Source: a virus
Length of the DNA stretch: 55,901 bases
IMG/VR virus record: IMGVR_UViG_3300045988_171564
Strand: one strand, 5' to 3'
The notes under the pieces were generated by a model that was not told the DNA's origin, did no database searches, and saw only the letters and a program-made list of their open reading frames with translations. Made by a program: the position numbers and the translations under genes. Position 1 is the stretch's first letter. Each line of letters opens with the position of its first letter. Positions 1 to 55,901 of the stretch are shown here, piece after piece.

Positions 1-27
1 GTCGATCAGATCAAAAACGCGATTGAA
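1..27. repeat. Assembly overlap: bases 1-27 are identical to 55875-55901, so the contig is a closed circle of 55,874 bp
   Basis: First and last 27 nt are both gtcgatcagatcaaaaacgcgattgaa. The tape-measure reading frame is preserved across the join. Confidence 0.95.
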
Positions 28-16574: not shown

Positions 16575-16606
16575 GAGCGGACGCGACATGCGCCCGCTTT
16601 TTTTAT
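16575..16606 (+). terminator. Rho-independent terminator
   Basis: GAGCGGACGCG..GCGCCCGCT stem followed by TTTTTTT. Confidence 0.6.
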
Positions 16607-16745
16607 TATGCCTGTTATGCTTATTATGTCGATTAAATAACAGACATAGCGTATTGACATTATACCCATTATCGGTGTATCATAATGAGCATAAATTATG
16701 CCCATTATATATATGGCATAACAGACATAACGCACATAATCGGAG
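16606..16745. repeat. CATAAC-type 9-bp repeat arrays flanking the parA promoter (candidate centromere/operator)
   Basis: Left arm is inverted: ttatgcctgttatgc / ttattatgtcg / ataacagacata. Right arm is CATAACAGA-CATAACGCA-CATAATCGG plus cataatgagcataa. Confidence 0.65.
16654..16683 (+). promoter_or_regulatory. Candidate parA promoter
   Basis: TTGACA (16654-16659), 18-nt spacer, TATCAT (16678-16683), embedded in the repeat arrays. Confidence 0.5.
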
Positions 16746-16755
16746 CGTGAGAGAC

Positions 16756-17514
16756 ATGAGAACCATCGTAATAGCAAATCAGAAGGGCGGCGTGGGCAAA
16801 ACCACGACCGCACACGCGATGATCGCAGGGCTTGCCAAGCGCGGCTTCAGCGTGCTGGGCATTGACCTTGACCCACAAGGCAATTTATCGTCCGCGTGCG
16901 GCGCGGATCAGTACGACGGGCCCACGACGTATGAAGTGTTGACCGGCAAGGCAAGTGTATCCAGCGCGATTCAAGAATTGGGCAAACCGCGCTATAAGCT
17001 CTTAGCGGCCAATATAATGCTTGCAAGTGCCGAACAGGAACTAACACAGGTGGGCAAGGAATATCGCCTTAGAGAGGCGCTGACGGGCTTACAGGGCATT
17101 GATTACGTGATAGTTGATACGCCGCCGTCGCTGGGCATACTGACCGTCAACGCCTTTACCGCCGCGAACTGCGTAATCATACCCACTACGGCGGGCGTGT
17201 TCGCCGCAACCGGCATAGACCAGCTCAACATTACCATTGGCAACGTGCGCAAGTATTGCAACCCCGGACTGTATATCGCGGGCATACTGTTTACCCGATA
17301 CAACGCGCGCACGAACGTTGGTCGTCAGATAAGGACGCTGACAGAGCAGCTAGGCGAGCGCATATCCGCGCCGACTTACCACACCTGCATCCGTTCGGCG
17401 GTAGCGGTGGAAGAAGCGCAAATCAGCCGGGAGGATATATTTACCTATGCGGCAAGTTCGACCGTCGCCGCCGACTATAACGACTTTCTGAAGGAGTTCT
17501 TGGAAAATGGCTAA
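16756..17514 (+). CDS. parA: ParA/Soj-family partition ATPase
   Basis: Deviant Walker A in IANQKGGVGKTTTAHA, and DYVIVDTPPSLG. The upstream part of the 16588 ORF is repeat DNA, so ATG 16756 is taken as the start. Confidence 0.85.
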   Translation: MRTIVIANQKGGVGKTTTAHAMIAGLAKRGFSVLGIDLDPQGNLSSACGADQYDGPTTYEVLTGKASVSSAIQELGKPRYKLLAANIMLASAEQELTQVGKEYRLREALTGLQGIDYVIVDTPPSLGILTVNAFTAANCVIIPTTAGVFAATGIDQLNITIGNVRKYCNPGLYIAGILFTRYNARTNVGRQIRTLTEQLGERISAPTYHTCIRSAVAVEEAQISREDIFTYAASSTVAADYNDFLKEFLENG

Positions 17515-17788
17515 AAAGGCATTTGATACGGACAGGCTGTATGGCAATTTTATGAGCGTCAAGGAACGGGATGAGCAGGAAGAGCCCGCACGCAAGAGCA
17601 GTGCAAAAAGGCGCGTATGCTTTGCCGTGCCCGCCGACGTGTACGCCGACGCGCAGAAGATAGCGCAGGTAAGGCTCACCAGTGTAAGTGAGATCGTGTC
17701 GAGACTGCTGACCGAATACGTTGCCCGGAATCGGGAAGCGCTTGCAGAGTACGACACCTTAAAGGCCAAAAGTCAAGAAAAGAGCTAA
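17507..17788 (+). CDS. ParG-like ribbon-helix-helix partition/centromere-binding protein
   Basis: Overlaps the parA stop. RRVCFAVPADVYADAQKIAQVRLTSVSEIVSRLL fits an RHH (beta-alpha-alpha) pattern, preceded by a basic flexible N-terminus. Confidence 0.6.
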   Translation: MAKKAFDTDRLYGNFMSVKERDEQEEPARKSSAKRRVCFAVPADVYADAQKIAQVRLTSVSEIVSRLLTEYVARNREALAEYDTLKAKSQEKS

Positions 17789-18497: not shown

Positions 18498-19274
18498 CTA
18501 TCCGAGTTTATTCACTCGTTTGTAGTGCGCCATAGTCGCCTGCAATCGGGAGGGCGCGTTGATTACGAACTCCACACTCTCTATGCTTCTGCCGCCATTT
18601 CTGCGTGGCTCATAGTCTATGTGTATGTCATCGCATCGTTCGTTTATTTCCGAGATTGCGTCTCGTAATACCCTTCTGTCAAAGTCTGCCCAGCGTGGGT
18701 AATTTGCCACACATAGAACGTTTCTAAGCTCGTCGAGAGAGTATTTCACGATTTGAGTTTGATGGGTTTCAAGCTGCTTTTGGGTAACATGAGAACGCAA
18801 TATCTCGTAAAGCCTTATTGCGTATCTGTTTCCAAACACGAGCACGTTTTGCAATTTGTACTGCGTGTAGTTTTGCCTTAGGCCAAAAAGAAACGGCTCC
18901 ATATGCGGGTTGAATCTAATCTCAACTTTGGAACTGTTGTAATTTATCTTACAGTCGCCGATCCATGACATTGTTTGCTCCGTGCCATCTGGCATAGTGC
19001 ACCATTCGCGCCTTGTCAGTGCGTTGAGATTGTCTTTTAACGAGCGATAATAATATCCGCCATCTTCGTAAGCGAATCCACAAGCCCTGCAAAACTCATC
19101 AAGGTTGATTGTGTATACGGTGTTGGAAGTATCGTCGGGTTTTATCTTGGATATGGCAAACAAAACGATTTTCTGCTGCTGGGTTGTGAGACTATATCGC
19201 GAACGTCTTATAAGCTCGTTGGCTTTTACAACATATTGTTCTCTGTCCATAACCGTTTTTTTGCTGCTTGCCAT
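18498..19274 (-). CDS. rep: Rep_3/RepB-type plasmid replication initiator
   Basis: N-term VVKANELIRRSRYSLTTQQQKIVLFAISKIKPDD is typical of iteron-binding Rep_3 initiators. Iterons lie upstream. Confidence 0.8.
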   Translation of the reverse strand: MASSKKTVMDREQYVVKANELIRRSRYSLTTQQQKIVLFAISKIKPDDTSNTVYTINLDEFCRACGFAYEDGGYYYRSLKDNLNALTRREWCTMPDGTEQTMSWIGDCKINYNSSKVEIRFNPHMEPFLFGLRQNYTQYKLQNVLVFGNRYAIRLYEILRSHVTQKQLETHQTQIVKYSLDELRNVLCVANYPRWADFDRRVLRDAISEINERCDDIHIDYEPRRNGGRSIESVEFVINAPSRLQATMAHYKRVNKLG

Positions 19275-19575: not shown

Positions 19576-19728
19576 GTGACAGTTTTCTCCCCCGGAAGTG
19601 ACACTTTTCTCCGTCTCAATGGTGACACTTTCCTCCGTGGTTCGGTGACACTTTTCTCCGTTAGAGTGACACTTTTCTCCGTCTCAATGGTGACACTTTC
19701 CTCCGTGGTTCGGTGACACTTTTCTCCG
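19576..19728. repeat. Seven direct iterons GTGACAC(T)TTTCTCCG at 21-24 bp spacing (plasmid origin)
   Basis: Copies start at 19576, 19598, 19622, 19645, 19666, 19690 and 19713. The 68-bp unit 19598-19665 is duplicated at 19666-19733. Confidence 0.9.
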
Positions 19729-19812
19729 TGCTTCATCGGCTTAACTATGTACTTTTTTTCCGGGGAATCGAACCCACTCGCGCGAATGAATAAACAGCGA
19801 TTTAAAATTAAA

Positions 19813-19873
19813 GTGAGAAAAGGTGCGCATTAAGGTGAGAAATGGTGCGCATTGGGTGAGAAATGGTGCGCAC
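19813..19873. repeat. Three inverted-orientation iteron-like repeats GTGAGAAA(A/T)GGTGCGCA
   Basis: Copies start at 19813, 19835 and 19856. GAGAAAAGGTG resembles the reverse complement of the iteron core (GGAGAAAAGTGTCAC). Confidence 0.75.
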
Positions 19874-20000: not shown

Positions 20001-20126
20001 AGCAAAATTGCTATCAAAAGGCTAAAAAGCTGCGGCTCCAAAATAAATTTAGTAATCGCTGGAATACGTCGACACATAACAGCATATATAATATTACACG
20101 ATAATTAACGAAAGGAGGGCTTTGAA

Positions 20127-22499: not shown

Positions 22500-23363
22500 A
22501 TGGACGAAGTGAGCGAAGGCGTAAGAGGTTATAAGGTTTTCAAGTCCGATTGGACTTGCCAAGGCAAGCAGTATACTTGTCCGGGCAAATTTGAAGAAAA
22601 CGTTAAGCTGTTGATCTGCTCACGTGGTATACACTTTTGCAAGAAAGCGGTGGATTGCTTTAATTATTACGATTTTGACCCCGATTTCCACGTTGCTGAG
22701 GTAGTTGCGTATGGGCGAGTGGTAGAGCGAGACGATAAATGCGTGACGGACAAATTAGAAATCGTGCGCGAAATTTCATGGCATGAGGTGCTTGACTTAA
22801 CGAACACCGGCAACAATTGCACGGGATTTAAGAATAGCGGCGATGAAAATAGTGGCAATTTGAATAGCGGCAATAGAAATAGTGGCCATGGAAATAGTGG
22901 TCATGGAAATAGCGGCAATTTGAATAGCGGCGATGTGAATAGTGGCGATAGAAATAGTGGCAATAGAAACAGTGGCGACTGGAATAAATGCAGCAACTCC
23001 AACGGCTGTTTCAATACAATTCCGCAGCAAACGATCTACATGTTTAACAAGCCGTCCAACTGGAGCTATGCCGATTGGCTTACCAGCCGTGCAGCTTTTA
23101 TTCTTTCTGCTGCACCGTGTAGCAGAACTAAATGGGTCGCGCTGTCCGCAATGACAGACGTTGAAAAGACGGAACATCCCGAAGCCGTGACTGTGGGGGG
23201 CTTCTTACGCAAAGTCGAAGTAAGTGCAGCTGAGGTCAACCGATGGTGGCAAAGCTTGCCGAGCAATAGCAAAGAAGAGGTTCTGTCACTCCCTAACTTT
23301 GACAAGGCGATATTCAAGGAAATAACCGGCATAAATGTAGACGTTGAACGGATTTACGATTAG
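22500..23363 (+). CDS. Pentapeptide-repeat protein, paralog 1 (Cys-rich N-domain, about 10 NSGxx units, conserved C-domain)
   Basis: ATG 22500 follows GGGGAGGGA. NSGDENSGNLNSGNRNSGHGNSGHG... The C-domain CFNT..FNKPSNW..PNFDK.IFK.ITGI.VD matches 26008..26715. Confidence 0.75.
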   Translation: MDEVSEGVRGYKVFKSDWTCQGKQYTCPGKFEENVKLLICSRGIHFCKKAVDCFNYYDFDPDFHVAEVVAYGRVVERDDKCVTDKLEIVREISWHEVLDLTNTGNNCTGFKNSGDENSGNLNSGNRNSGHGNSGHGNSGNLNSGDVNSGDRNSGNRNSGDWNKCSNSNGCFNTIPQQTIYMFNKPSNWSYADWLTSRAAFILSAAPCSRTKWVALSAMTDVEKTEHPEAVTVGGFLRKVEVSAAEVNRWWQSLPSNSKEEVLSLPNFDKAIFKEITGINVDVERIYD

Positions 23364-26007: not shown

Positions 26008-26715
26008 ATGAACGAAAAGGAGAAAGACACCAAGGGGAACACCGGTGACTGCAACGCCGGTCACGGCAATACCGGCAATTTCAATACCGGCAACTACAAT
26101 ACCGGCAACTACAATACCGGTAATTACAACGCCGGCAAATGGAACACCGGTAAATGGAATACTGGTAAATGGAACACCGGTGACTGGAACATCGGGAATT
26201 ACAACACCGGGAATTGCAATGTCGGTCTTCGCAACACCGGCGGCTGCAACACCGGCAGCTGGAACACCGGCGACTACAACACTGGCCACTTCAACACCGG
26301 CAACTACAACACCGGTGACTGGAACACTGGCGACTGGAATACATGCCGCCGTTCTTCTGGATGTTTTAATACCGTCGAACAAACGCTCCCCTTTTTTAAC
26401 AAGCCGTCGAATTGGACTTATCGAGATTGGGTTTGGAGCGACGCGCACGCGATATTATGCACAATGCCACGCAAACTCGCATGGGTCGATTTTGCCGACA
26501 TGACGGCAGACGAAAAACTTGTGCATCCGGATGCGGAGACAGTGGGCGGTTGCCTTAAAGAATACAGCACTTTAGAGCAGATCGAGCGCGTCAACTGGTG
26601 GCGCGATTTGCCGAAGAATAATCAAGAAGCCGTGATGTCGATGCCCAATTTCGACAAAGAAATATTTAAGCAGATCACCGGCATAGATGTAGACGCAGAA
26701 TGGATTGACGATTAA
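26008..26715 (+). CDS. Pentapeptide-repeat protein, paralog 2 (about 20 N(T/A)Gxx units, conserved C-domain)
   Basis: NTGDCNAGHGNTGNFNTGNYNTGNY...NTGDWNTC, then a C-domain shared with 22500..23363. Inserted between the exonuclease and recT genes. Confidence 0.75.
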   Translation: MNEKEKDTKGNTGDCNAGHGNTGNFNTGNYNTGNYNTGNYNAGKWNTGKWNTGKWNTGDWNIGNYNTGNCNVGLRNTGGCNTGSWNTGDYNTGHFNTGNYNTGDWNTGDWNTCRRSSGCFNTVEQTLPFFNKPSNWTYRDWVWSDAHAILCTMPRKLAWVDFADMTADEKLVHPDAETVGGCLKEYSTLEQIERVNWWRDLPKNNQEAVMSMPNFDKEIFKQITGIDVDAEWIDD

Positions 26716-37909: not shown

Positions 37910-37947
37910 AGAAAATGCCGCTCATACGAGCGACACTAAACTATTGC

Positions 37948-37999
37948 GGGGTTATGGCGAAACGAAACGATTGGGGGTTATGGCGAAACGGAACGACTG
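37948..37999. repeat. 26-bp tandem duplication spanning the 3' end of gene 37952..38353
   Basis: GGGGTTATGGCGAAACGAAACGATTG followed by GGGGTTATGGCGAAACGGAACGACTG, with 2 mismatches. Confidence 0.9.
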
Positions 38000-38353
38000 A
38001 GGCTTATAATCATTGGCATCGCGATCGTAGTGCCACAGCGTCAGATCAACGCCGTAACATGCGCAAGCGTACATGACGGCCGTCGTGCATGGCGTTAGCC
38101 CCGTCACAACAACGTTCAGCGGTTCGCCGACAACTATTGTAGTGTCATCCCAGCCGTTAATGGCGCTGCCGATCGCATTGCGCGGACTACAATGCTCGTA
38201 CACATATTTGTCCGCGATGTGGAGCAGCCTCGCGAAATCGAGAACGTTCTCGATTTCACCATAAATGTATTCATCCACCGGTAGTGGATGCCGTCCGGCG
38301 CACAAACCAACCACGCGCTTCCCGGACGCTATAACATCATTCAAAGTTTGCAT
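37952..38353 (-). CDS. Hypothetical 133-aa protein
   Basis: Alternating beta/alpha pattern (VVGLCAGRH ... LNVVVTGLTPCTTAVMYACACYG). No family recognised. Confidence 0.55.
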   Translation of the reverse strand: MQTLNDVIASGKRVVGLCAGRHPLPVDEYIYGEIENVLDFARLLHIADKYVYEHCSPRNAIGSAINGWDDTTIVVGEPLNVVVTGLTPCTTAVMYACACYGVDLTLWHYDRDANDYKPQSFRFAITPNRFVSP

Positions 38354-41313: not shown

Positions 41314-41958
41314 TCACGGCTGTTCTCCTTGCGCGTGCTCAGCGATGTTCGCGCTGCCGTATACTTCAGCGAACTCATGCACCTCGGCGTTGCCGTATAC
41401 GCGGGCGTTGCCGTATACGGCCGCGCACCCGTGTATAGTGGCGTTGCCGTAAACCTCAGCACCGTCGTATACGCAGGCGCTGCCGTATACGCGGGCACCG
41501 TCGTATACGCAGGCGTTGCCTTCCACCTCGGTGTATTCATGCACCTCGGCGTTGCCGTAAACCTCAGCATTGCCGTATACGCAGGCGCTGCCGTATACGC
41601 GGGCACCGTCGTATACGCAGGCGTTGCCGTATACTTCAGCGAACTCATGCACCTCGGCGTTGCCGTAAACCTCAGCATCGCCGTATACGCAGGCGTTGCC
41701 GTATACGCGGGCGCTGCCGTATACGCAAGCACCGTCGTATACGCGGGCGTTGCCGTATACGCAAGCACCGTCGTATACGCGGGCGTTGCCGTATACCCAG
41801 GCGCTGCCGTCCTGGCTAAGGCAGGTATCATCTTCAATCCACCCGCCCACGTCGCCCGCGTGAACGTCGCCAAAATCACGCAAGGCCTTGACTCTGTAAA
41901 AAGTATGGCCGATGGTATGCGCGTTGTTCGCATCGACCAACTCATATTTTCTTGGCAT
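41314..41958 (-). CDS. Beta-helix-type hexad-repeat protein, paralog B
   Basis: MPRKYELV..FYRVKALRDFGDVHAGDVGGWIE, then about 27 hexads (ARVYDG ACVYGN ...). The DNA shows an 18-bp periodicity. Confidence 0.7.
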   Translation of the reverse strand: MPRKYELVDANNAHTIGHTFYRVKALRDFGDVHAGDVGGWIEDDTCLSQDGSAWVYGNARVYDGACVYGNARVYDGACVYGSARVYGNACVYGDAEVYGNAEVHEFAEVYGNACVYDGARVYGSACVYGNAEVYGNAEVHEYTEVEGNACVYDGARVYGSACVYDGAEVYGNATIHGCAAVYGNARVYGNAEVHEFAEVYGSANIAEHAQGEQP

Positions 41959-44063: not shown

Positions 44064-44321
44064 CCCCCCCCTCACCCGGTGCACTGTATGGCCTCTTGCG
44101 CCCTTGCACGTCCCTTGTACGTCCTTGTACGCCTTTACGCGCCTCTTAGCTGGCCGCGTCTTAGCCGCTTGCACCCGGCGAGGCGTGCGCCCCTTAGCTG
44201 GCCGCGTCGCTTGCCCTCAGTCGCTTTTATGCACGCGCCCCCCGGCGGCTATGCGTCTGACTGCCTGACTGCCCCCCGTGGGGATATGGCCAATTAGCTG
44301 TCCCCCCCCGGTTAGCCCCCC
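44064..44321. repeat. C-rich region with poly-C tracts and 16-bp direct repeats (candidate res / pac / structured DNA)
   Basis: C8 at 44064-44071 and 44302-44309. C6 runs at 44238, 44272 and 44316. CTTAGCTGGCCGCGTC at 44145-44160 and 44193-44208. CCTTGTACG occurs twice. Confidence 0.6.
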
Positions 44322-44340
44322 GACCACATTCAAAAAAATA

Positions 44341-44369
44341 TTGACATTACCACACACACATGATATAAT
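44341..44369 (+). promoter_or_regulatory. Consensus promoter for the HTH and recombinase genes
   Basis: TTGACA (44341-44346), 17-nt spacer, TATAAT (44364-44369). Confidence 0.7.
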
Positions 44370-44386
44370 GTATATGAGGTGAGACG

Positions 44387-44728
44387 ATGGCTACGAAATC
44401 TAAAAACGAGATGCAGACTTTAAGCTCGAAAGATGCTATAAGGGCATTGTGTTCTTTGCGAAAATGGACGCAAGCTGATCTTGCTTATGAAATGGGATAT
44501 GCGAGCCAAGCAGGCGTTGGACAGATGCTTAGTGATAGACAGAACTCCAAAAAAGGTATGTCGCTATCGACGTATGAAAAGGCTCTTGAAGCCCTAGGCG
44601 CTGAATTGATAGTCCGTGACAAGATGGGCAGCGGGAAGGAGTGGAAGATAGATGATTTACTTTTACGCGAGAGTGTCGACGGTGGAGCAAAATCTAGCAA
44701 GGCAGATAGAAGCAGCGAAGAAGTATAA
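44387..44728 (+). CDS. XRE-like HTH regulator
   Basis: LRKWTQADLAYEMGYASQAGVGQMLS HTH. Overlaps the recombinase start by 77 nt. Confidence 0.6.
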   Translation: MATKSKNEMQTLSSKDAIRALCSLRKWTQADLAYEMGYASQAGVGQMLSDRQNSKKGMSLSTYEKALEALGAELIVRDKMGSGKEWKIDDLLLRESVDGGAKSSKADRSSEEV

Positions 44729-45254
44729 AGGCGTTGACGAAATCTTTTCCGACAAGATGAGCGGAAAGAACTTTAACAGAGTAGAGTATCAGCGCATGAA
44801 GTCGATGCTTCAGAAGGGCGACGAAGTAGTTGTGAAATCGCTTGACCGTCTGGGCAGAGATAAGAACCTTGTGAAAGATGAAATCCAGTGGTTCAAAGAG
44901 CATGGTGTGAAACTGAGGATACTGGACATACCGACGACGCTCATTGAGATGGACGGTCAGGAATGGGTAGGCGATATGGTAACGAACATACTGATCGAGG
45001 TCATGGCGAGCGTTGCGGAGCAGGAGCGCATGATGATAAGAGAGCGTCAGCGCGAGGGGATAGAAGCCAAGCGTAAATCGGGGACATGGGACGAATACGG
45101 GCGGCCAAAGAAGAATACGGACGGGATAGAAGATTACTGGCTGGCGTATAAGTCAGGCGAAATGACGCGGGAGGATTGCTGTAAGGCGTTGGGCATATCT
45201 TCAAGGACACTGTATAATCGCGCAAAGGAACTTAACTTGATGATGGCGAACTAA
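44652..45254 (+). CDS. Small serine recombinase (resolvase/invertase family)
   Basis: MIYFYARVSTVEQNLARQ (catalytic Ser motif), VVKSLDRLGRD, and a C-terminal HTH EDCCKALGISSRTLYNRAKE. 200 aa. Confidence 0.85.
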   Translation: MIYFYARVSTVEQNLARQIEAAKKYKGVDEIFSDKMSGKNFNRVEYQRMKSMLQKGDEVVVKSLDRLGRDKNLVKDEIQWFKEHGVKLRILDIPTTLIEMDGQEWVGDMVTNILIEVMASVAEQERMMIRERQREGIEAKRKSGTWDEYGRPKKNTDGIEDYWLAYKSGEMTREDCCKALGISSRTLYNRAKELNLMMAN

Positions 45255-47192: not shown

Positions 47193-47279
47193 ATGCGTAC
47201 ATTTGTTCGTTGCAATCGACCGTTCGTTGTGAGAACATAATAATGGCATATAATAAATGGCGATTGGAGATGAAGCGCG

Positions 47280-53091: not shown

Positions 53092-53538
53092 ATGGCGGCA
53101 GCTACTTCGGCTACTTCTACTTATAAATCGTTCCTAATGATGAAGCAGGCCTCCGGCAGCACTTACGAAAAGCTGGTGGACATTAAGAGCTATCCCGACC
53201 TGGGCGGTACGCCCAACATGCTTGACGCTACCACGCTGAGCGATCCCATGACCCGTCAGATATTGGGCATACAGCAGGTTGATTCGTTGGAGTTCATTGC
53301 CAACTACACGCTGGCCGACTACAAGAAGCTCAAGGCGCTTGAAGGTTCGGAGCACGATTTCGCTGTATGGTTTGGCGGTACTGAAACGGCGGGCGTGCCC
53401 ACGTCTACCGGCGAAGACGGCAAAGCGACGTTTAAAGGCAGCCTGAGCGTATACATCAACGGCGGCGGCGTCGATGAGGTGCGCGAAATGACTATCACCT
53501 TGGCCGCGTCCACGGTAATTGCGCTGGACGAAACTTGA
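53092..53538 (+). CDS. Major tail protein
   Basis: 148 aa. STYKSFLMMKQASGSTYEKLVDIKSYPDLGGTPNMLDATTLSD resembles TP901-1/phi13-type major tail proteins. No sheath gene is present. Confidence 0.7.
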   Translation: MAAATSATSTYKSFLMMKQASGSTYEKLVDIKSYPDLGGTPNMLDATTLSDPMTRQILGIQQVDSLEFIANYTLADYKKLKALEGSEHDFAVWFGGTETAGVPTSTGEDGKATFKGSLSVYINGGGVDEVREMTITLAASTVIALDET

Positions 53539-53544
53539 GCAGAA

Positions 53545-53640
53545 TAACCGGCATAATGCTCATAATCGGCATATAAGGCATACCTTATGTGCAGCACATA
53601 ACAAGTATAACAAACATAACCAGCATAACAGGCATACAGC
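53545..53640. repeat. Second CATAAC-type 9-bp repeat array (related to the par-promoter arrays), inside the tail operon
   Basis: ggcataatgctcataatcggcatataaggcata ... ACATAACAA-GTATAACAA-ACATAACCA-GCATAACAG-GCATACAGC. GCATAACAGGCATA (53623-53636) is the exact reverse complement of 16607-16620. Confidence 0.75.
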
Positions 53641-53654
53641 AGGAGGGAATCAAC

Positions 53655-53990
53655 ATGGCAAAGACCATTTGCTTTAATTACGACGGCAAGGACTACACCC
53701 TTGAATATACCCGCGCGAGTGTGCGCACGATGGAGAATCGCGGCTTTAAGCCGGGTGATCTTGTAGAAAAGCCCATGAACACCCTGCCGGAGCTGTTCGC
53801 GGGTGCGTTCATAGCGAACCATCGCTTTACCAAGCGCGAGGTGATAGACGCGATATACGCCGCGATGGGCAACAAGGAAGAACTGGTGAACAAGCTGGCC
53901 GAGATGTACAACGAACCCATCAGTGCGCTTATGGCCGAGCCGGACAACGACGGCGGCGAAAAAAACGTGAAGTGGGACGCGAACTGGTAA
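53655..53990 (+). CDS. Tail assembly chaperone (gpG-like)
   Basis: AGGAGGG SD. 111 aa. Lies between the major tail protein and the TMP. Confidence 0.7.
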   Translation: MAKTICFNYDGKDYTLEYTRASVRTMENRGFKPGDLVEKPMNTLPELFAGAFIANHRFTKREVIDAIYAAMGNKEELVNKLAEMYNEPISALMAEPDNDGGEKNVKWDANW

Positions 53991-54416: not shown

Positions 54417-55901
54417 ATGCCTGAGTATAGCGTTGACAGTCTGAAACTCAAGATAACCAGCGATACGTCGAAAGCCACTCAGGGAATAGACAAGCTGCGC
54501 AAGTCGCTGATTAATCTGGAAGCGGCAGTACGCAATATAGGCAAGCTCAACTCCGGGCTTAACGACAAGTTCAGCGGGTTCGCCAAAAGCCTTGAACCGC
54601 TTCAAAACCTCAACTTTAAGAGCCTGAACAAGGGCATAAAGCAGCTAGAGCACCTGCGCAGCATAAATCTTTCGCCGCTTGCGGAGGGTATAAAGGGCTT
54701 TAACGGTGTTGACTTCGATGCCGACAAGTTTCAGAAGCTCGCCAACACGTTTAACGGCTCAAATGTCGGCATGTTTGCGCGTGGCGCTGATGCGCTGGCC
54801 AAGCTGGGGCAGGTTGATCTAACCCCGCTAAACATGAGCCTTATGGACTTGCCGGATGACGCGGTAGGGAAACTGCAAAGTCTGGCCGAGGCGATGGGTG
54901 GCCTCAGCATTGCACAAGACCTGATGCAAAAGACCATCCGTAACGCCAAAGCAAAGGCAAAGGCCGATTTTGAGGGTGCGCCCACGTTTGGCAGCGCCGA
55001 TACACTGCCCGAAATTAACGGTGGAACCACAGAAGTGATGCTGGACAACGCGGCCAAAAGCGCGAAAGAAACGTCTGACGCGATAGAAGAAGTCGGAGAC
55101 GTTTCCGAGGAATCCTCAAAAAAGGTAGAGACGCTGCGCGAGAGCCTGGCAAAGTTTTCTCAAAGCGGCCTAGGTAAGGCATTGCGCGGTCTGGGCAACA
55201 TCGCAAAACGCGGTCTAAGCCTTTTGGGCACTCTGGGCAAGAATCTGGCTGGCGGCTTTGGAAAGATGCTTATTCAGCCCATAAAATCCGCGGGCAAGCA
55301 CCTGGGCGAACTCGTTAAGAAGTTCCAGACTGCCGGGAAAAAGATAGCGGGCACGGTCGGTTACTGGGCGTTGTTCCAGGCAATAACCGCCGTGAGCAAC
55401 GCATTTAAGCAGGGACTTGCCAACCTAAACGAATATGCACAAGCCGCAGGCGGCACGCTGCAAACGTCGCTGAACAGCATAGCGACCAACATGCAGTACC
55501 TTAAAAACTCCATAGGCGCGCTGGCCGCGCCGCTTATCAACGCAATCGCCCCGGCGCTTGACTACATCGTCGATAAAGTTGTTTCGGCGTTCAACATCAT
55601 AAGTCAGATAATAGCCAGACTGACGGGAGCGTCCACATGGACGCGCGCTACCAAAGCGGCGGCGACGTTCGGCAAAACAGCGGGCAGCGCGGGCAAAGCC
55701 GCAAAGAACGCTGGCAAGGCCGCTAAGACAATGGCGATGGCGTTTGACGAACTGAACGTGCTTAAAGATTCGGGCGGTTCGGGCGGCGGCGGCGGCGGTG
55801 GAGGCGGCGGCGGCGGTTCCGATGCGGGCGCGATGTTTGAGGAAGTGCCCATCGACAGCGCGATTAGCGGCTGGGTCGATCAGATCAAAAACGCGATTGA
55901 A
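54417..55901 (+). CDS. Tail tape measure protein, N-terminal part (open to the end of the window; continues at base 28)
   Basis: ATG 54417. 495 codons with no stop up to the window end. In frame with 1..2352 through the 27-nt overlap. Absent from the ORF track, probably because it has no stop within the window. Confidence 0.85.
   Translation, partial: MPEYSVDSLKLKITSDTSKATQGIDKLRKSLINLEAAVRNIGKLNSGLNDKFSGFAKSLEPLQNLNFKSLNKGIKQLEHLRSINLSPLAEGIKGFNGVDFDADKFQKLANTFNGSNVGMFARGADALAKLGQVDLTPLNMSLMDLPDDAVGKLQSLAEAMGGLSIAQDLMQKTIRNAKAKAKADFEGAPTFGSADTLPEINGGTTEVMLDNAAKSAKETSDAIEEVGDVSEESSKKVETLRESLAKFSQSGLGKALRGLGNIAKRGLSLLGTLGKNLAGGFGKMLIQPIKSAGKHLGELVKKFQTAGKKIAGTVGYWALFQAITAVSNAFKQGLANLNEYAQAAGGTLQTSLNSIATNMQYLKNSIGALAAPLINAIAPALDYIVDKVVSAFNIISQIIARLTGASTWTRATKAAATFGKTAGSAGKAAKNAGKAAKTMAMAFDELNVLKDSGGSGGGGGGGGGGGGSDAGAMFEEVPIDSAISGWVDQIKNAIE

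What the first reader, a model, noticed from the sequence alone, without database searches (positions are those of the whole stretch)
53545..53640. Partition-promoter repeat motif recurs as a 9-bp tandem array inside the tail operon (dispersed centromere-like sites?)
The gap between the major tail gene and the chaperone gene holds five head-to-tail 9-mers (ACATAACAA GTATAACAA ACATAACCA GCATAACAG GCATACAGC), preceded by ggcataatgctcataatcggcatataaggcata.

The same motif family surrounds the parA promoter. There the right arm reads CATAACAGA CATAACGCA CATAATCGG. In the left arm, GCATAACAGGCATA is present as an exact 14-nt reverse complement (16607-16620 versus 53623-53636).

Weaker matches occur near the origin (ACATAACAGCATA, 20072-20084) and between terL and the portal gene (GAACATAATAATGGCATATAATAA, 47232-47255).

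Repeat arrays around a type Ib par promoter are the usual ParG-type centromere and operator. A second array 18.9 kb away round the circle, within late genes, recalls the scattered centromere sites of the plasmid-prophage N15. It could couple partition-protein binding to late-gene silencing.
Basis: partly seen in the sequence, partly recalled or inferred. Interest (0 to 1): 0.7.

Follow-up and report, generated by a model that had tools for sequence, protein, structure and literature searches.

The report
Second partition-protein binding array in tail operon
A gut phage that also lives as a plasmid carries, between two tail genes, a second 99-bp array of the same 9-bp repeat that surrounds the promoter of its plasmid-partition genes. 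This is most likely an extra docking site for its small partition protein, a known kind of arrangement in a new place.

Summary
Window 53543-53641 contains 11 units in exact 9-bp register with core CATAA: a left block of direct units, one inverted unit, then five direct units. The array fills the 116-nt gap between the major tail gene and the DUF5055 chaperone gene.

The same unit, in both orientations and also on a 9-bp lattice, fills the parA promoter region (16602-16745). These are the only two such clusters in the 55.9-kb circular genome. A matrix trained only on par-region units picks out the tail array and nothing else.

The gene after parA encodes a ribbon-helix-helix protein with a disordered N-terminal tail, the ParG/omega/pCXC100-ParB architecture. 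pCXC100 ParB is known to bind unspaced 9-bp repeats.

All 12 tail-gap variants found in close relatives keep an array, although whole units turn over quickly. The nearest outgroups have a 12-75 nt gap and no array.

The gap has no conserved promoter, terminator, RNA hairpin or Rfam match. The best reading is a second, promoter-less binding array for the partition protein, acting as an auxiliary centromere. Any effect on late genes is untested. The two "weaker matches" (origin, terL-portal) are not supported. I class this as a new variant of a known kind, of moderate interest.

The parts
53543..53641 (+). Tail-operon array of 11 units on an exact 9-bp lattice: AATAACCGG CATAATGCT CATAATCGG CATATAAGG CATACCTTA TGTGCAGCA CATAACAAG TATAACAAA CATAACCAG CATAACAGG CATACAGCA.
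   Evidence: Together with the par region it has the highest CATAA density in the genome.
53543..53587 (+). Left block of direct units (4-5 in the window, 4-6 in relatives). This is the part kept when a moron replaces the rest of the array in L177-L180.
53581..53596 (-). Hinge: one inverted unit (CATAAGGTA on the minus strand at 53581-53589, i.e. ..CCTTATG.. on the plus strand) plus a degenerate unit. In relatives it sits after 4, 5 or 6 direct units.
53597..53641 (+). Right block of five direct units, abutting the Shine-Dalgarno GGAGGG (53642-53647) of the chaperone gene. It contains the 14-mer shared with the par left arm (53623-53636).
53092..53538 (+). Major tail protein gene, upstream neighbour of the array.
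   Evidence: phrog_158, E 2.9e-12
53655..53990 (+). DUF5055 gene. I call it a tail assembly chaperone from its position between the major tail and tape-measure genes. Downstream neighbour of the array.
   Evidence: Pfam PF16478, E 3.7e-39; synteny
16602..16745 (.). par promoter/operator-centromere region. In order: three inverted units (TTATG at 9-bp spacing, 16604-16628); two weak direct units; -35 TTGACA (16654-16659); two inverted units in the 18-nt spacer; -10 TATCAT (16678-16683); mixed units; three direct units at 16717-16743.
   Evidence: The architecture is conserved in L081 and L161-L166.
16756..17514 (+). parA, a small Walker-type ATPase of 252 aa.
   Evidence: Pfam AAA_31 6e-46 and CbiA; phrog_164. 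The start codon is taken from the sequence and from the 252-aa gene calls.
17507..17788 (+). 93-aa centromere-binding protein candidate. Disordered N-terminal tail (1-33), then a ribbon-helix-helix domain (strand ~35-41, helices 43-56 and 60-74) and an extra C-terminal helix.

Best explanation
The 99-bp array in the major-tail/chaperone gap is a second, promoter-less array of binding sites for the phage-plasmid's own partition adaptor. That adaptor is the 93-aa ribbon-helix-helix protein encoded after parA.

Proposed mechanism. In the plasmid-prophage state the protein is made from the autoregulated par promoter. Dimers load cooperatively on consecutive 9-bp units, as shown experimentally for pCXC100 ParB on 9-bp repeats. 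This forms a second nucleoprotein complex about 19 kb from the par locus. Its disordered N-terminal tails can stimulate ParA. The site would therefore act as an auxiliary centromere (parS2), lying in a part of the genome that is transcriptionally silent in the lysogen.

Why this position. The gap is one of the few places in the structural operon that tolerates extra DNA. Relatives carry hairpins or a moron at the same spot.

What is shown and what is inferred. Shown: the shared motif and 9-bp phasing, the uniqueness of the two clusters, the RHH fold, retention in all relatives, and the absence of a promoter or terminator. Inferred: that the RHH protein is the binder, that the complex engages ParA, and that it contributes to stability.
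For: - Same unit and same lattice in both regions. Whole 9-mers are shared (CATAACAGG, CATAATCGG), as is an exact 14-mer.
- Only two clusters exist in the complete genome. A PWM trained on par units alone recovers the tail array. In the 20-kb loci of relatives, the par or tail site is again the only cluster.
- The RHH assignment is supported. Homolog P0031 (62% identical) passes Pfam RHH_5 at 3e-7. Family members hit RHH_1, RHH_5, RHH_7 and VapB. The AF2 model (pLDDT 83.7) has a strand-helix-helix topology after a disordered tail. The leading Foldseek PDB hits are RHH proteins, including ParG, Arc and CopG.
- The 9-bp period tracks the protein family. P0031, whose beta-strand is RKRVNLVL instead of KRRVCFAV, has 15 phased 9-bp units upstream of its parA. 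Their sequence is different and lacks CATAA.
- Precedent exists. pCXC100 RHH ParB binds nine unspaced 9-bp repeats (PMC3074162). RHH ParB omega needs at least 4 contiguous repeats to activate ParA (PMC9499535). In every variant with an intact gap both blocks have about 3 or more contiguous units, and at least one block has 4 or more.
- The array is lineage-specific and retained. 78 of 80 IMG/VR tail homologs, plus the 71%-identity outgroup, have 12-75 nt gaps without an array. All 12 variants with at least 90% tail-protein identity keep at least 5 phased units, despite heavy unit turnover.
- The gene downstream of the RHH gene differs between relatives (210, 299 or 134 aa) while the arrays stay, so that gene is not the binder.
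Against: - No binding data exist.
- The family is young. Divergence at 4-fold sites is 6-23%. The CATAA cores differ by 2-12%, which is no better than neutral, so point-substitution data do not prove purifying selection.
- The right block is dispensable in the L177-L180 lineage, where a moron replaces it.
- Both arrays are seen on one contig in only two complete genomes, the window and IMGVR_UViG_3300012344_000029.
- All sampled relatives share the same core motif, so there is no co-variation test between par and tail arrays.
- The par region itself has more units (11 hits at 6 bits or more) than the tail array (6 hits), so a second centromere is not obviously needed.
Confidence: 0.55

Rival explanations
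1. Transcriptional roadblock or attenuator. The same RHH protein binds the array, but the selected function is to impede RNA polymerase between the major tail gene and the chaperone/tape-measure genes. This would either silence leaky late transcription in the lysogen or set the high-tail/low-chaperone ratio. It would work like mycobacteriophage stoperators.
For: - The array sits exactly where some relatives have a stem-loop (L011-L013, L019-L025), a position where differential expression is plausible.
- There is no promoter in the gap, so any regulatory effect must act on elongation.
- Repressors that stop elongation at intergenic sites are established for cluster A mycobacteriophages (PMC9283540).
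- A paper title cited in PMC11652158 states that the N15 Sop system influences late gene expression.
Against: - There is only one such site, in the middle of the operon and not at its start. Silencing would be expected near the late promoter.
- The papers read here describe RHH centromere-binding proteins acting at promoters and as ParA activators, not as roadblocks.
- Most relatives manage with a 12-35 nt gap.
- In L177-L180 a moron with its own TGgTATAAT promoter sits downstream of the left block. That fits poorly with a need for tight blockage there.
Confidence: 0.17
2. Functionless by-product. Units from the par region were copied by ectopic recombination or slippage into a permissive intergenic site, and they persist only because the lineage is young.
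For: - The cores are no more conserved than 4-fold sites.
- The site is an insertion hot spot, with a moron in L177-L180.
- The right block can be lost.
- The array arose once, on one branch.
Against: - Arrays turn over quickly. Spacer columns differ by 30-45%, which is 2-4 times the 4-fold rate. Units are gained and lost, and the hinge moves.
- Even so, none of 12 variants has lost the array, and the intact-gap variants stay close in length, most of them at exactly 116 nt.
- Tandem repeats without function are easily deleted.
Confidence: 0.13
3. RNA-level element. The transcribed repeats form an unstructured A/C-rich leader (a ribosome standby site or translational enhancer) or a hairpin that tunes chaperone translation or mRNA stability.
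For: - In the window the right block is A/C-rich, is predicted to be unpaired, and abuts the Shine-Dalgarno sequence.
- A 9-bp hairpin (53570-53593) is predicted.
Against: - Folding is not significantly better than shuffles (z = -1.66).
- The hairpin arms are not conserved in L002 or L169.
- The A/C-rich character is lost in L305 and L308.
- In L177-L180 the right block is gone while the left block, now far from the chaperone start, is kept.
- There is no Rfam match.
- The same units occur in both orientations upstream of the par -35, where they are not transcribed from that promoter.
Confidence: 0.05
4. A real DNA-binding array, but read by a different protein: another phage regulator or a host factor that controls both the par promoter and the tail gap.
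For: - Binding is not demonstrated.
- The genome encodes several HTH proteins.
Against: - The 9-bp unspaced phasing, the mixed orientations and the position around a type Ib parA promoter are the signature of RHH centromere-binding proteins (PMC3074162).
- A relative with a changed RHH beta-strand has changed units at the same period.
- The adjacent variable gene is excluded as the binder.
Confidence: 0.08

Closest known systems
pCXC100 (Leifsonia xyli) type Ib ParA / RHH ParB / centromere
   Same: A small ParA is followed by a small RHH protein. The centromere consists of unspaced, non-palindromic 9-bp repeats bound cooperatively by successive dimers (PMC3074162). The 9-bp period and array length (9-10 units against 11 here) match.
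   Different: The pCXC100 centromere studied in PMC3074162 is a single array with consensus AGNTGGAAA. There was no detectable sequence similarity to any PDB chain. Here there is a second array about 19 kb away inside a phage late operon, and units occur in both orientations.
pSM19035 delta/omega with several parS arrays
   Same: An RHH centromere-binding protein with a disordered N-terminal tail binds arrays of short contiguous repeats in mixed orientation. At least 4 contiguous repeats are needed to activate ParA (PMC9499535). From my own knowledge, the plasmid has more than one array and omega doubles as a repressor.
   Different: The repeats are 7-bp heptads. From my own knowledge, all omega arrays overlap promoters (P-delta, P-omega, P-copS). 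The tail array has no conserved promoter, and the replicon here is a phage-plasmid.
N15 linear phage-plasmid: dispersed SopB sites (IR1-IR4)
   Same: It is a plasmid-prophage whose centromere sites are scattered away from the partition operon (four IR sites, PMC7205306). Its partition system is reported to affect late gene expression (Ravin et al. 2008, cited in PMC11652158).
   Different: N15 has a Sop system closely related to that of F (PMC7205306), which I classify as type Ia with an HTH ParB. Its sites are single palindromes rather than tandem arrays, and its prophage is a linear plasmid (PMC7205306). Here there is an RHH protein, 9-bp tandem arrays, and a circular Rep3/iteron replicon.
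pB171 par2 (parC1-parA-parB-parC2)
   Same: It is a type Ib-like system with two centromere arrays per replicon (locus order as in PMC4270457).
   Different: Both parC arrays flank the par genes directly. Here the second array is about 19 kb away.
Cluster A mycobacteriophage stoperators
   Same: Short asymmetric protein-binding sites lie in intergenic gaps of structural operons of a temperate phage (PMC9283540).
   Different: Stoperators are many single sites for the immunity repressor, not one tandem array for a partition protein. This is relevant only to the roadblock rival.

Membership tests
Type Ib (ParA / RHH-CBP) plasmid partition system | Small Walker-type ParA without an N-terminal DNA-binding domain | tested here: met
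   252 aa. Pfam AAA_31 covers residues 7-179 of the translated stretch, CbiA covers 10-227, and phrog_164 matches.
Type Ib (ParA / RHH-CBP) plasmid partition system | Small ribbon-helix-helix centromere-binding protein encoded immediately downstream, with a flexible N-terminal tail | tested here: met
   The window protein itself hits RHH_5 only at E 0.1. Its 62%-identical homolog P0031 passes the threshold (3e-7). Family members hit RHH_1, RHH_5 and RHH_7. The AF2 model has pLDDT 83.7 with a disordered 1-33. The leading Foldseek hits are RHH proteins, but with weak E-values of 0.04-0.3.
Type Ib (ParA / RHH-CBP) plasmid partition system | Array of short repeats upstream of parA that overlaps the promoter (centromere plus operator) | tested here: met
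   About 14 units surround and enter TTGACA-18-TATCAT. The arrangement is conserved in L081 and L161-L166.
Type Ib (ParA / RHH-CBP) plasmid partition system | The CBP binds the repeats and stimulates the ParA ATPase; the locus stabilises the plasmid | not testable with these tools
   Needs EMSA or footprinting, ATPase assays and stability assays.
pCXC100-type 9-bp centromere | Unspaced 9-bp repeat lattice | tested here: met
   Unit starts at 53543 + 9k for k = 0-10. The period is the same in the par arms and in the P0031 relative.
pCXC100-type 9-bp centromere | Sequence homology of the CBP to pCXC100 ParB | tested here: not met
   A profile search of PDB sequences found no RHH partition protein, only noise hits to ribosomal protein S20 at E 0.17-0.3.
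N15-type dispersed centromeres | Type Ia SopA/SopB (HTH ParB) system | tested here: not met
   The adaptor is a 93-aa RHH protein, not a ParB/SopB.
N15-type dispersed centromeres | Single palindromic sites scattered in the genome, some in late regions | tested here: not met
   Here there is one extra site only. It is a tandem array of asymmetric units, and no further cluster exists.
omega-type global regulator arrays (pSM19035) | Each array overlaps a promoter that it represses | tested here: not met
   The scan found no sigma-70-like promoter in 53540-53655. Promoter-like hexamers formed by units in L305/L306 are not conserved (from reading the sequence).

The most novel reading that the evidence does not exclude
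The tail-operon array is the principal, transcription-sheltered centromere of this phage-plasmid, and the promoter-proximal sites mainly autoregulate par. Alternatively, or in addition, the RHH-coated array acts as a lifestyle-dependent roadblock that ties expression of the chaperone, tape-measure and distal tail genes to the level of partition protein. Either way, a type Ib partition adaptor would have been recruited into the wiring of a phage late operon. The array would be kept at a near-constant length while its units turn over rapidly.
Probability: 0.2. Interest if true: 0.7.

Novelty: new variant of a known kind. Interest (0 to 1): 0.5.

Why it matters
Phage-plasmids are common in gut bacteria, but how they combine plasmid maintenance with the phage programme is known for only a few models, such as P1 and N15. 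This case would be an RHH/type Ib partition system with a remote, promoter-less repeat array embedded in a structural operon. It gives a simple system for three questions. Do RHH-type partition complexes benefit from multiple centromeres? Can such complexes tolerate or modulate transcription through them? Why do centromere arrays turn over so quickly while keeping their length? The sequences also give a ready set of natural array variants (4+5, 6+3, 4+3 units, or left block only) for stability and incompatibility tests.

Tried and rejected
- Scanning IMG/VR for four phased CATAA cores returned more than 118 loci that I judged unrelated from their contig names (many giant-virus MAGs). It was uninformative.
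- A genome-contig scan with the RHH protein found no relative, so the host remains unknown.
- Nucleotide searches of the phage and plasmid collections gave one weak partial hit and none.
- An AF2 model from the shallow 21-sequence alignment collapsed into one long helix. It was replaced by the 65-sequence model.
- A PDB sequence search gave only noise.
- Looking up a remote RHH homolog (P0152) gave only ~600-bp contigs.
- 'Core conserved, spacer variable' as proof of selection (Fisher p = 2e-5) was downgraded after the neutral-rate control. Cores change at about the 4-fold rate, and spacers change 2-4 times faster because whole units are exchanged.
- A promoter or operator in the gap was rejected.
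- A terminator was rejected.
- A conserved RNA hairpin was rejected.
- A known RNA family was rejected.
- A res site for the phage's serine recombinase was considered and rejected. That gene is at 44652-45254, far from both arrays, and the repeat architecture does not look like a res site.
- The Ravin 2008 N15 paper could not be read.

Full report
**What is in the sequence**

The gap between the major tail gene (53092-53538; phrog_158) and the DUF5055 gene (53655-53990; Pfam E 3.7e-39) is 116 nt. I call the DUF5055 gene the tail chaperone from its position between the major tail and tape-measure genes.

Positions 53543-53641 of this gap form 11 units on an exact 9-bp lattice:
AATAACCGG CATAATGCT CATAATCGG CATATAAGG CATACCTTA TGTGCAGCA CATAACAAG TATAACAAA CATAACCAG CATAACAGG CATACAGCA.

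- Unit 6 is degenerate and overlaps one inverted unit (CATAAGGTA on the minus strand, 53581-53589).
- The last unit abuts the GGAGGG ribosome-binding site of the chaperone gene.
- Tandem Repeats Finder reports period 9 for both halves.

**The par region**

parA (ATG at 16756, 252 aa) is preceded by TTGACA-18-TATCAT (16654-16683). The same unit surrounds this promoter. In order, the region holds:

- three inverted copies at 9-bp spacing (16604-16628);
- two inverted copies inside the promoter spacer;
- mixed copies after the -10;
- three direct copies, CATAACAGA CATAACGCA CATAATCGG, at 16717-16743.

The 14-mer GCATAACAGGCATA is exact at 16607-16620 (-) and 53623-53636 (+). The complete 9-mers CATAACAGG and CATAATCGG occur in both regions.

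**More than chance**

- CATAA/TTATG reaches 6 per 100 bp in exactly these two places. The next-best window has 3, and 200 Markov-1 simulations never exceeded 4.
- A weight matrix trained only on par-region units of the window and its relatives finds one cluster elsewhere in the genome, the tail array, with 6 hits. The next cluster has 2, and simulations gave at most 4.
- The window is a complete circular assembly. It has a 27-bp terminal overlap, and the tape-measure ORF crosses the junction. "Only two clusters" therefore applies to the whole replicon.

**The two weaker matches fail**

- In the terL-portal gap the copies are 11 bp apart. The CATAAT is TATAAT in relatives, so it is a -10-like hexamer.
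- The origin-side site is a single copy beside TATATAAT in a uniformly conserved stretch.

**What the element is part of**

The replicon is a phage-plasmid from human gut metagenomes. It has:

- ParA;
- a 93-aa protein immediately downstream;
- a Rep3 initiator (18498-19274, minus strand) with 22-23-bp iterons (19598-19872);
- a full siphovirus structural module.

The 93-aa protein has only close relatives in the large protein database (31 clusters, many on 51-57 kb contigs).

Evidence that it is a ribbon-helix-helix (RHH) protein:

- Its 62%-identical relative P0031 passes Pfam RHH_5 (3e-7).
- Remote relatives hit RHH_1, RHH_5, RHH_7 and VapB.
- An AlphaFold model from a 65-sequence alignment (pLDDT 83.7) shows a disordered tail (1-33), an extended segment, and then helices 43-56, 60-74 and 76-92.
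- The leading Foldseek PDB matches are RHH proteins: CopA_SO, ParG, Arc and CopG. TM-scores on the target reach 0.85, but E-values are weak, as expected for a 45-residue domain.

This is the architecture of ParG, omega and pCXC100 ParB. [quoted passage not shown]

**Comparative evidence**

*Outgroups lack the array.* Of 80 IMG/VR loci with a homologous major tail gene, 78 (57-67% identity) have a gap of 12-75 nt and no array. Some have a stem-loop there instead. The nearest outgroup, at 71% identity, has a 20-nt gap.

*Close relatives keep it.* Every relative with at least 90% tail-protein identity has an array. I found 12 distinct versions.

*The versions differ by whole units:*

- The inverted hinge unit sits after 4, 5 or 6 direct units.
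- One version has an extra unit (125 nt).
- One has two fewer units (98 nt).
- Most of the rest are exactly 116 nt.
- In L177-L180, a ~700-bp moron (a DUF4406-like gene with its own TGgTATAAT promoter) replaces the hinge and right block. Five contiguous left units remain.

*Co-occurrence with par.* One relative contig (IMGVR_UViG_3300012344_000029, 54.7 kb) carries both the tail array and the par module (L002 and L081). The par promoter architecture is conserved in all relatives examined.

**A caution on selection**

At first sight the CATAA cores look conserved and the spacers variable: 6 of 50 core columns vary against 22 of 40 spacer columns (p = 2e-5). The neutral control changes this reading.

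| Site class | Divergence between variants |
|---|---|
| 4-fold degenerate sites in the flanking genes | 6-23% |
| CATAA core columns | 2-12% |
| Spacer columns | 30-45% |

The cores are therefore not demonstrably under purifying selection against point mutation. Instead, units are exchanged, gained and lost far faster than the neutral substitution rate. The argument for function is different. Despite this turnover, which should make deletion easy, no sampled genome has lost the array, and total length stays nearly constant.

**Specificity tracks the protein**

P0031 differs from the window protein mainly in the N-terminal tail and the predicted DNA-reading strand (RKRVNLVL against KRRVCFAV). 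Upstream of its parA there are 15 phased 9-bp units of a different sequence (for example GTGTACCAT ACACATCAT ATGTATCAT) with no CATAA core. The 9-bp period is therefore a property of this protein family, and the unit sequence changes with the strand. The gene downstream of the RHH gene differs between relatives while the arrays persist, which excludes that gene as the binder.

**What the array is not**

- The scan finds no sigma-70-like promoter and no intrinsic terminator in the gap.
- The one predicted RNA hairpin (53570-53593) is not conserved in L002 or L169, and folding is not significantly better than shuffles (z = -1.66).
- There is no Rfam match.
- The A/C-rich, unpaired character of the right block is lost in other variants.
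- In the moron lineage, the block that is retained is the one far from the chaperone start.

These points argue against an RNA-level or translational role.

**Most likely mechanism**

The array is a second loading site for the RHH partition adaptor. In the plasmid state, dimers would coat the 9-bp lattice cooperatively. The resulting complex, about 19 kb from par, would present N-terminal tails to ParA.

For the RHH ParB omega, at least four contiguous repeats are needed for ParA activation (PMC9499535). At least one block of the tail array meets this number in every variant. By contrast, the outer arms of the par promoter have only three contiguous units each, with the rest interspersed among promoter elements.

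The position is probably explained by permissiveness. This gap is where relatives carry hairpins or a moron, and late operons are silent in lysogens, so a complex there would not be swept off by transcription.

The sequence neither supports nor excludes it.

**Comparison with known systems**

- The par module meets the sequence-level criteria of a type Ib system.
- Its repeat geometry matches pCXC100, without detectable sequence homology.
- Multiple arrays per replicon are known for pSM19035 (at promoters, from my own knowledge) and for pB171 (flanking par; PMC4270457).
- Centromere sites scattered through a plasmid-prophage are known for N15 (PMC7205306; Ravin 2008 as cited in PMC11652158, a paper I could not read). 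From my own knowledge, that is a type Ia system with single palindromes on a linear replicon.
- My two literature searches on centromere arrays in phage-plasmids did not turn up an RHH-type tandem array placed without a promoter inside a phage structural operon.
- I therefore class this as a new variant of a known kind.

**Verdict**

- Binding, and any effect on stability or late genes, remain to be shown.
- Confidence that this is a selected DNA-level array read by the par RHH protein is about 0.7.
- Confidence that its main role is partition rather than regulation is about 0.55 of the total.

Noticed in passing
L177-L180 (e.g. L177:10448-11257), equivalent to window ~53588-53632: In one lineage a ~700-bp moron is inserted inside the array. 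It carries a DUF4406-like 107-aa gene, a short upstream ORF and a perfect extended -10 (TGgTATAAT). It replaces the hinge and right block and leaves five left units. The tail/chaperone gap is an insertion hot spot.
   Followed up: partly
window 53539-53654 and its equivalents in L001, L002, L169-L176, L305-L311: The array evolves by whole-unit exchange. Spacer columns differ by 30-45% against 6-23% at 4-fold sites. The inverted hinge unit sits after 4, 5 or 6 units, yet the gap is exactly 116 nt in most variants. This apparent length homeostasis is unexplained.
   Followed up: partly
L299:900-1050: A 62%-identical RHH relative (P0031) with a different beta-strand has 15 uninterrupted 9-bp units of a different sequence between a resolvase gene and its parA. 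This is a possible natural specificity switch in the family.
   Followed up: partly
window 19598-19734 and 19807-19872: There are six 23-bp iterons (GTGACACTTTTCTCCGT...) and three 22-bp repeats (GGTGAGAAATGGTGCGC...) beside the Rep3 initiator gene (18498-19274, minus strand). This is presumably the plasmid origin.
   Followed up: no
window 1-27 and 55875-55901: A 27-bp terminal direct repeat is present, and the 1281-codon tape-measure reading frame (54408 to 2349) crosses the junction. The window is a circularly closed assembly of about 55,874 bp.
   Followed up: yes
window 44100-44370: A GC-rich non-coding stretch has ~10-bp repeats (CCTTGTACGT x3.9 at 44102-44139) and a duplicated CTTAGCTGGCCGCGTC. 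It is followed by a near-consensus promoter (TTGACA-17-TATAAT, ~44343-44371) in front of the HTH/resolvase/terminase genes. This may be the late-operon control or packaging region.
   Followed up: no
window 47211-47245: The terL-portal gap has a promoter-like TTGCAA ... CATAAT, which reads TATAAT in L169 and L170.
   Followed up: partly
window 22833-22978, 26038-26336, 41386-41810: Long in-frame 15-bp and 18-bp tandem repeats lie inside ORFs. Relatives have Pentapeptide_2/DUF7666 genes in what may be the corresponding region. They are probably repeat proteins.
   Followed up: no
window 37930-38007: Three copies of a 26-bp repeat (GCGAAACGAAACGATTGGGGGTTATG) lie in a region between oppositely oriented ORFs. 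Function unknown.
   Followed up: no
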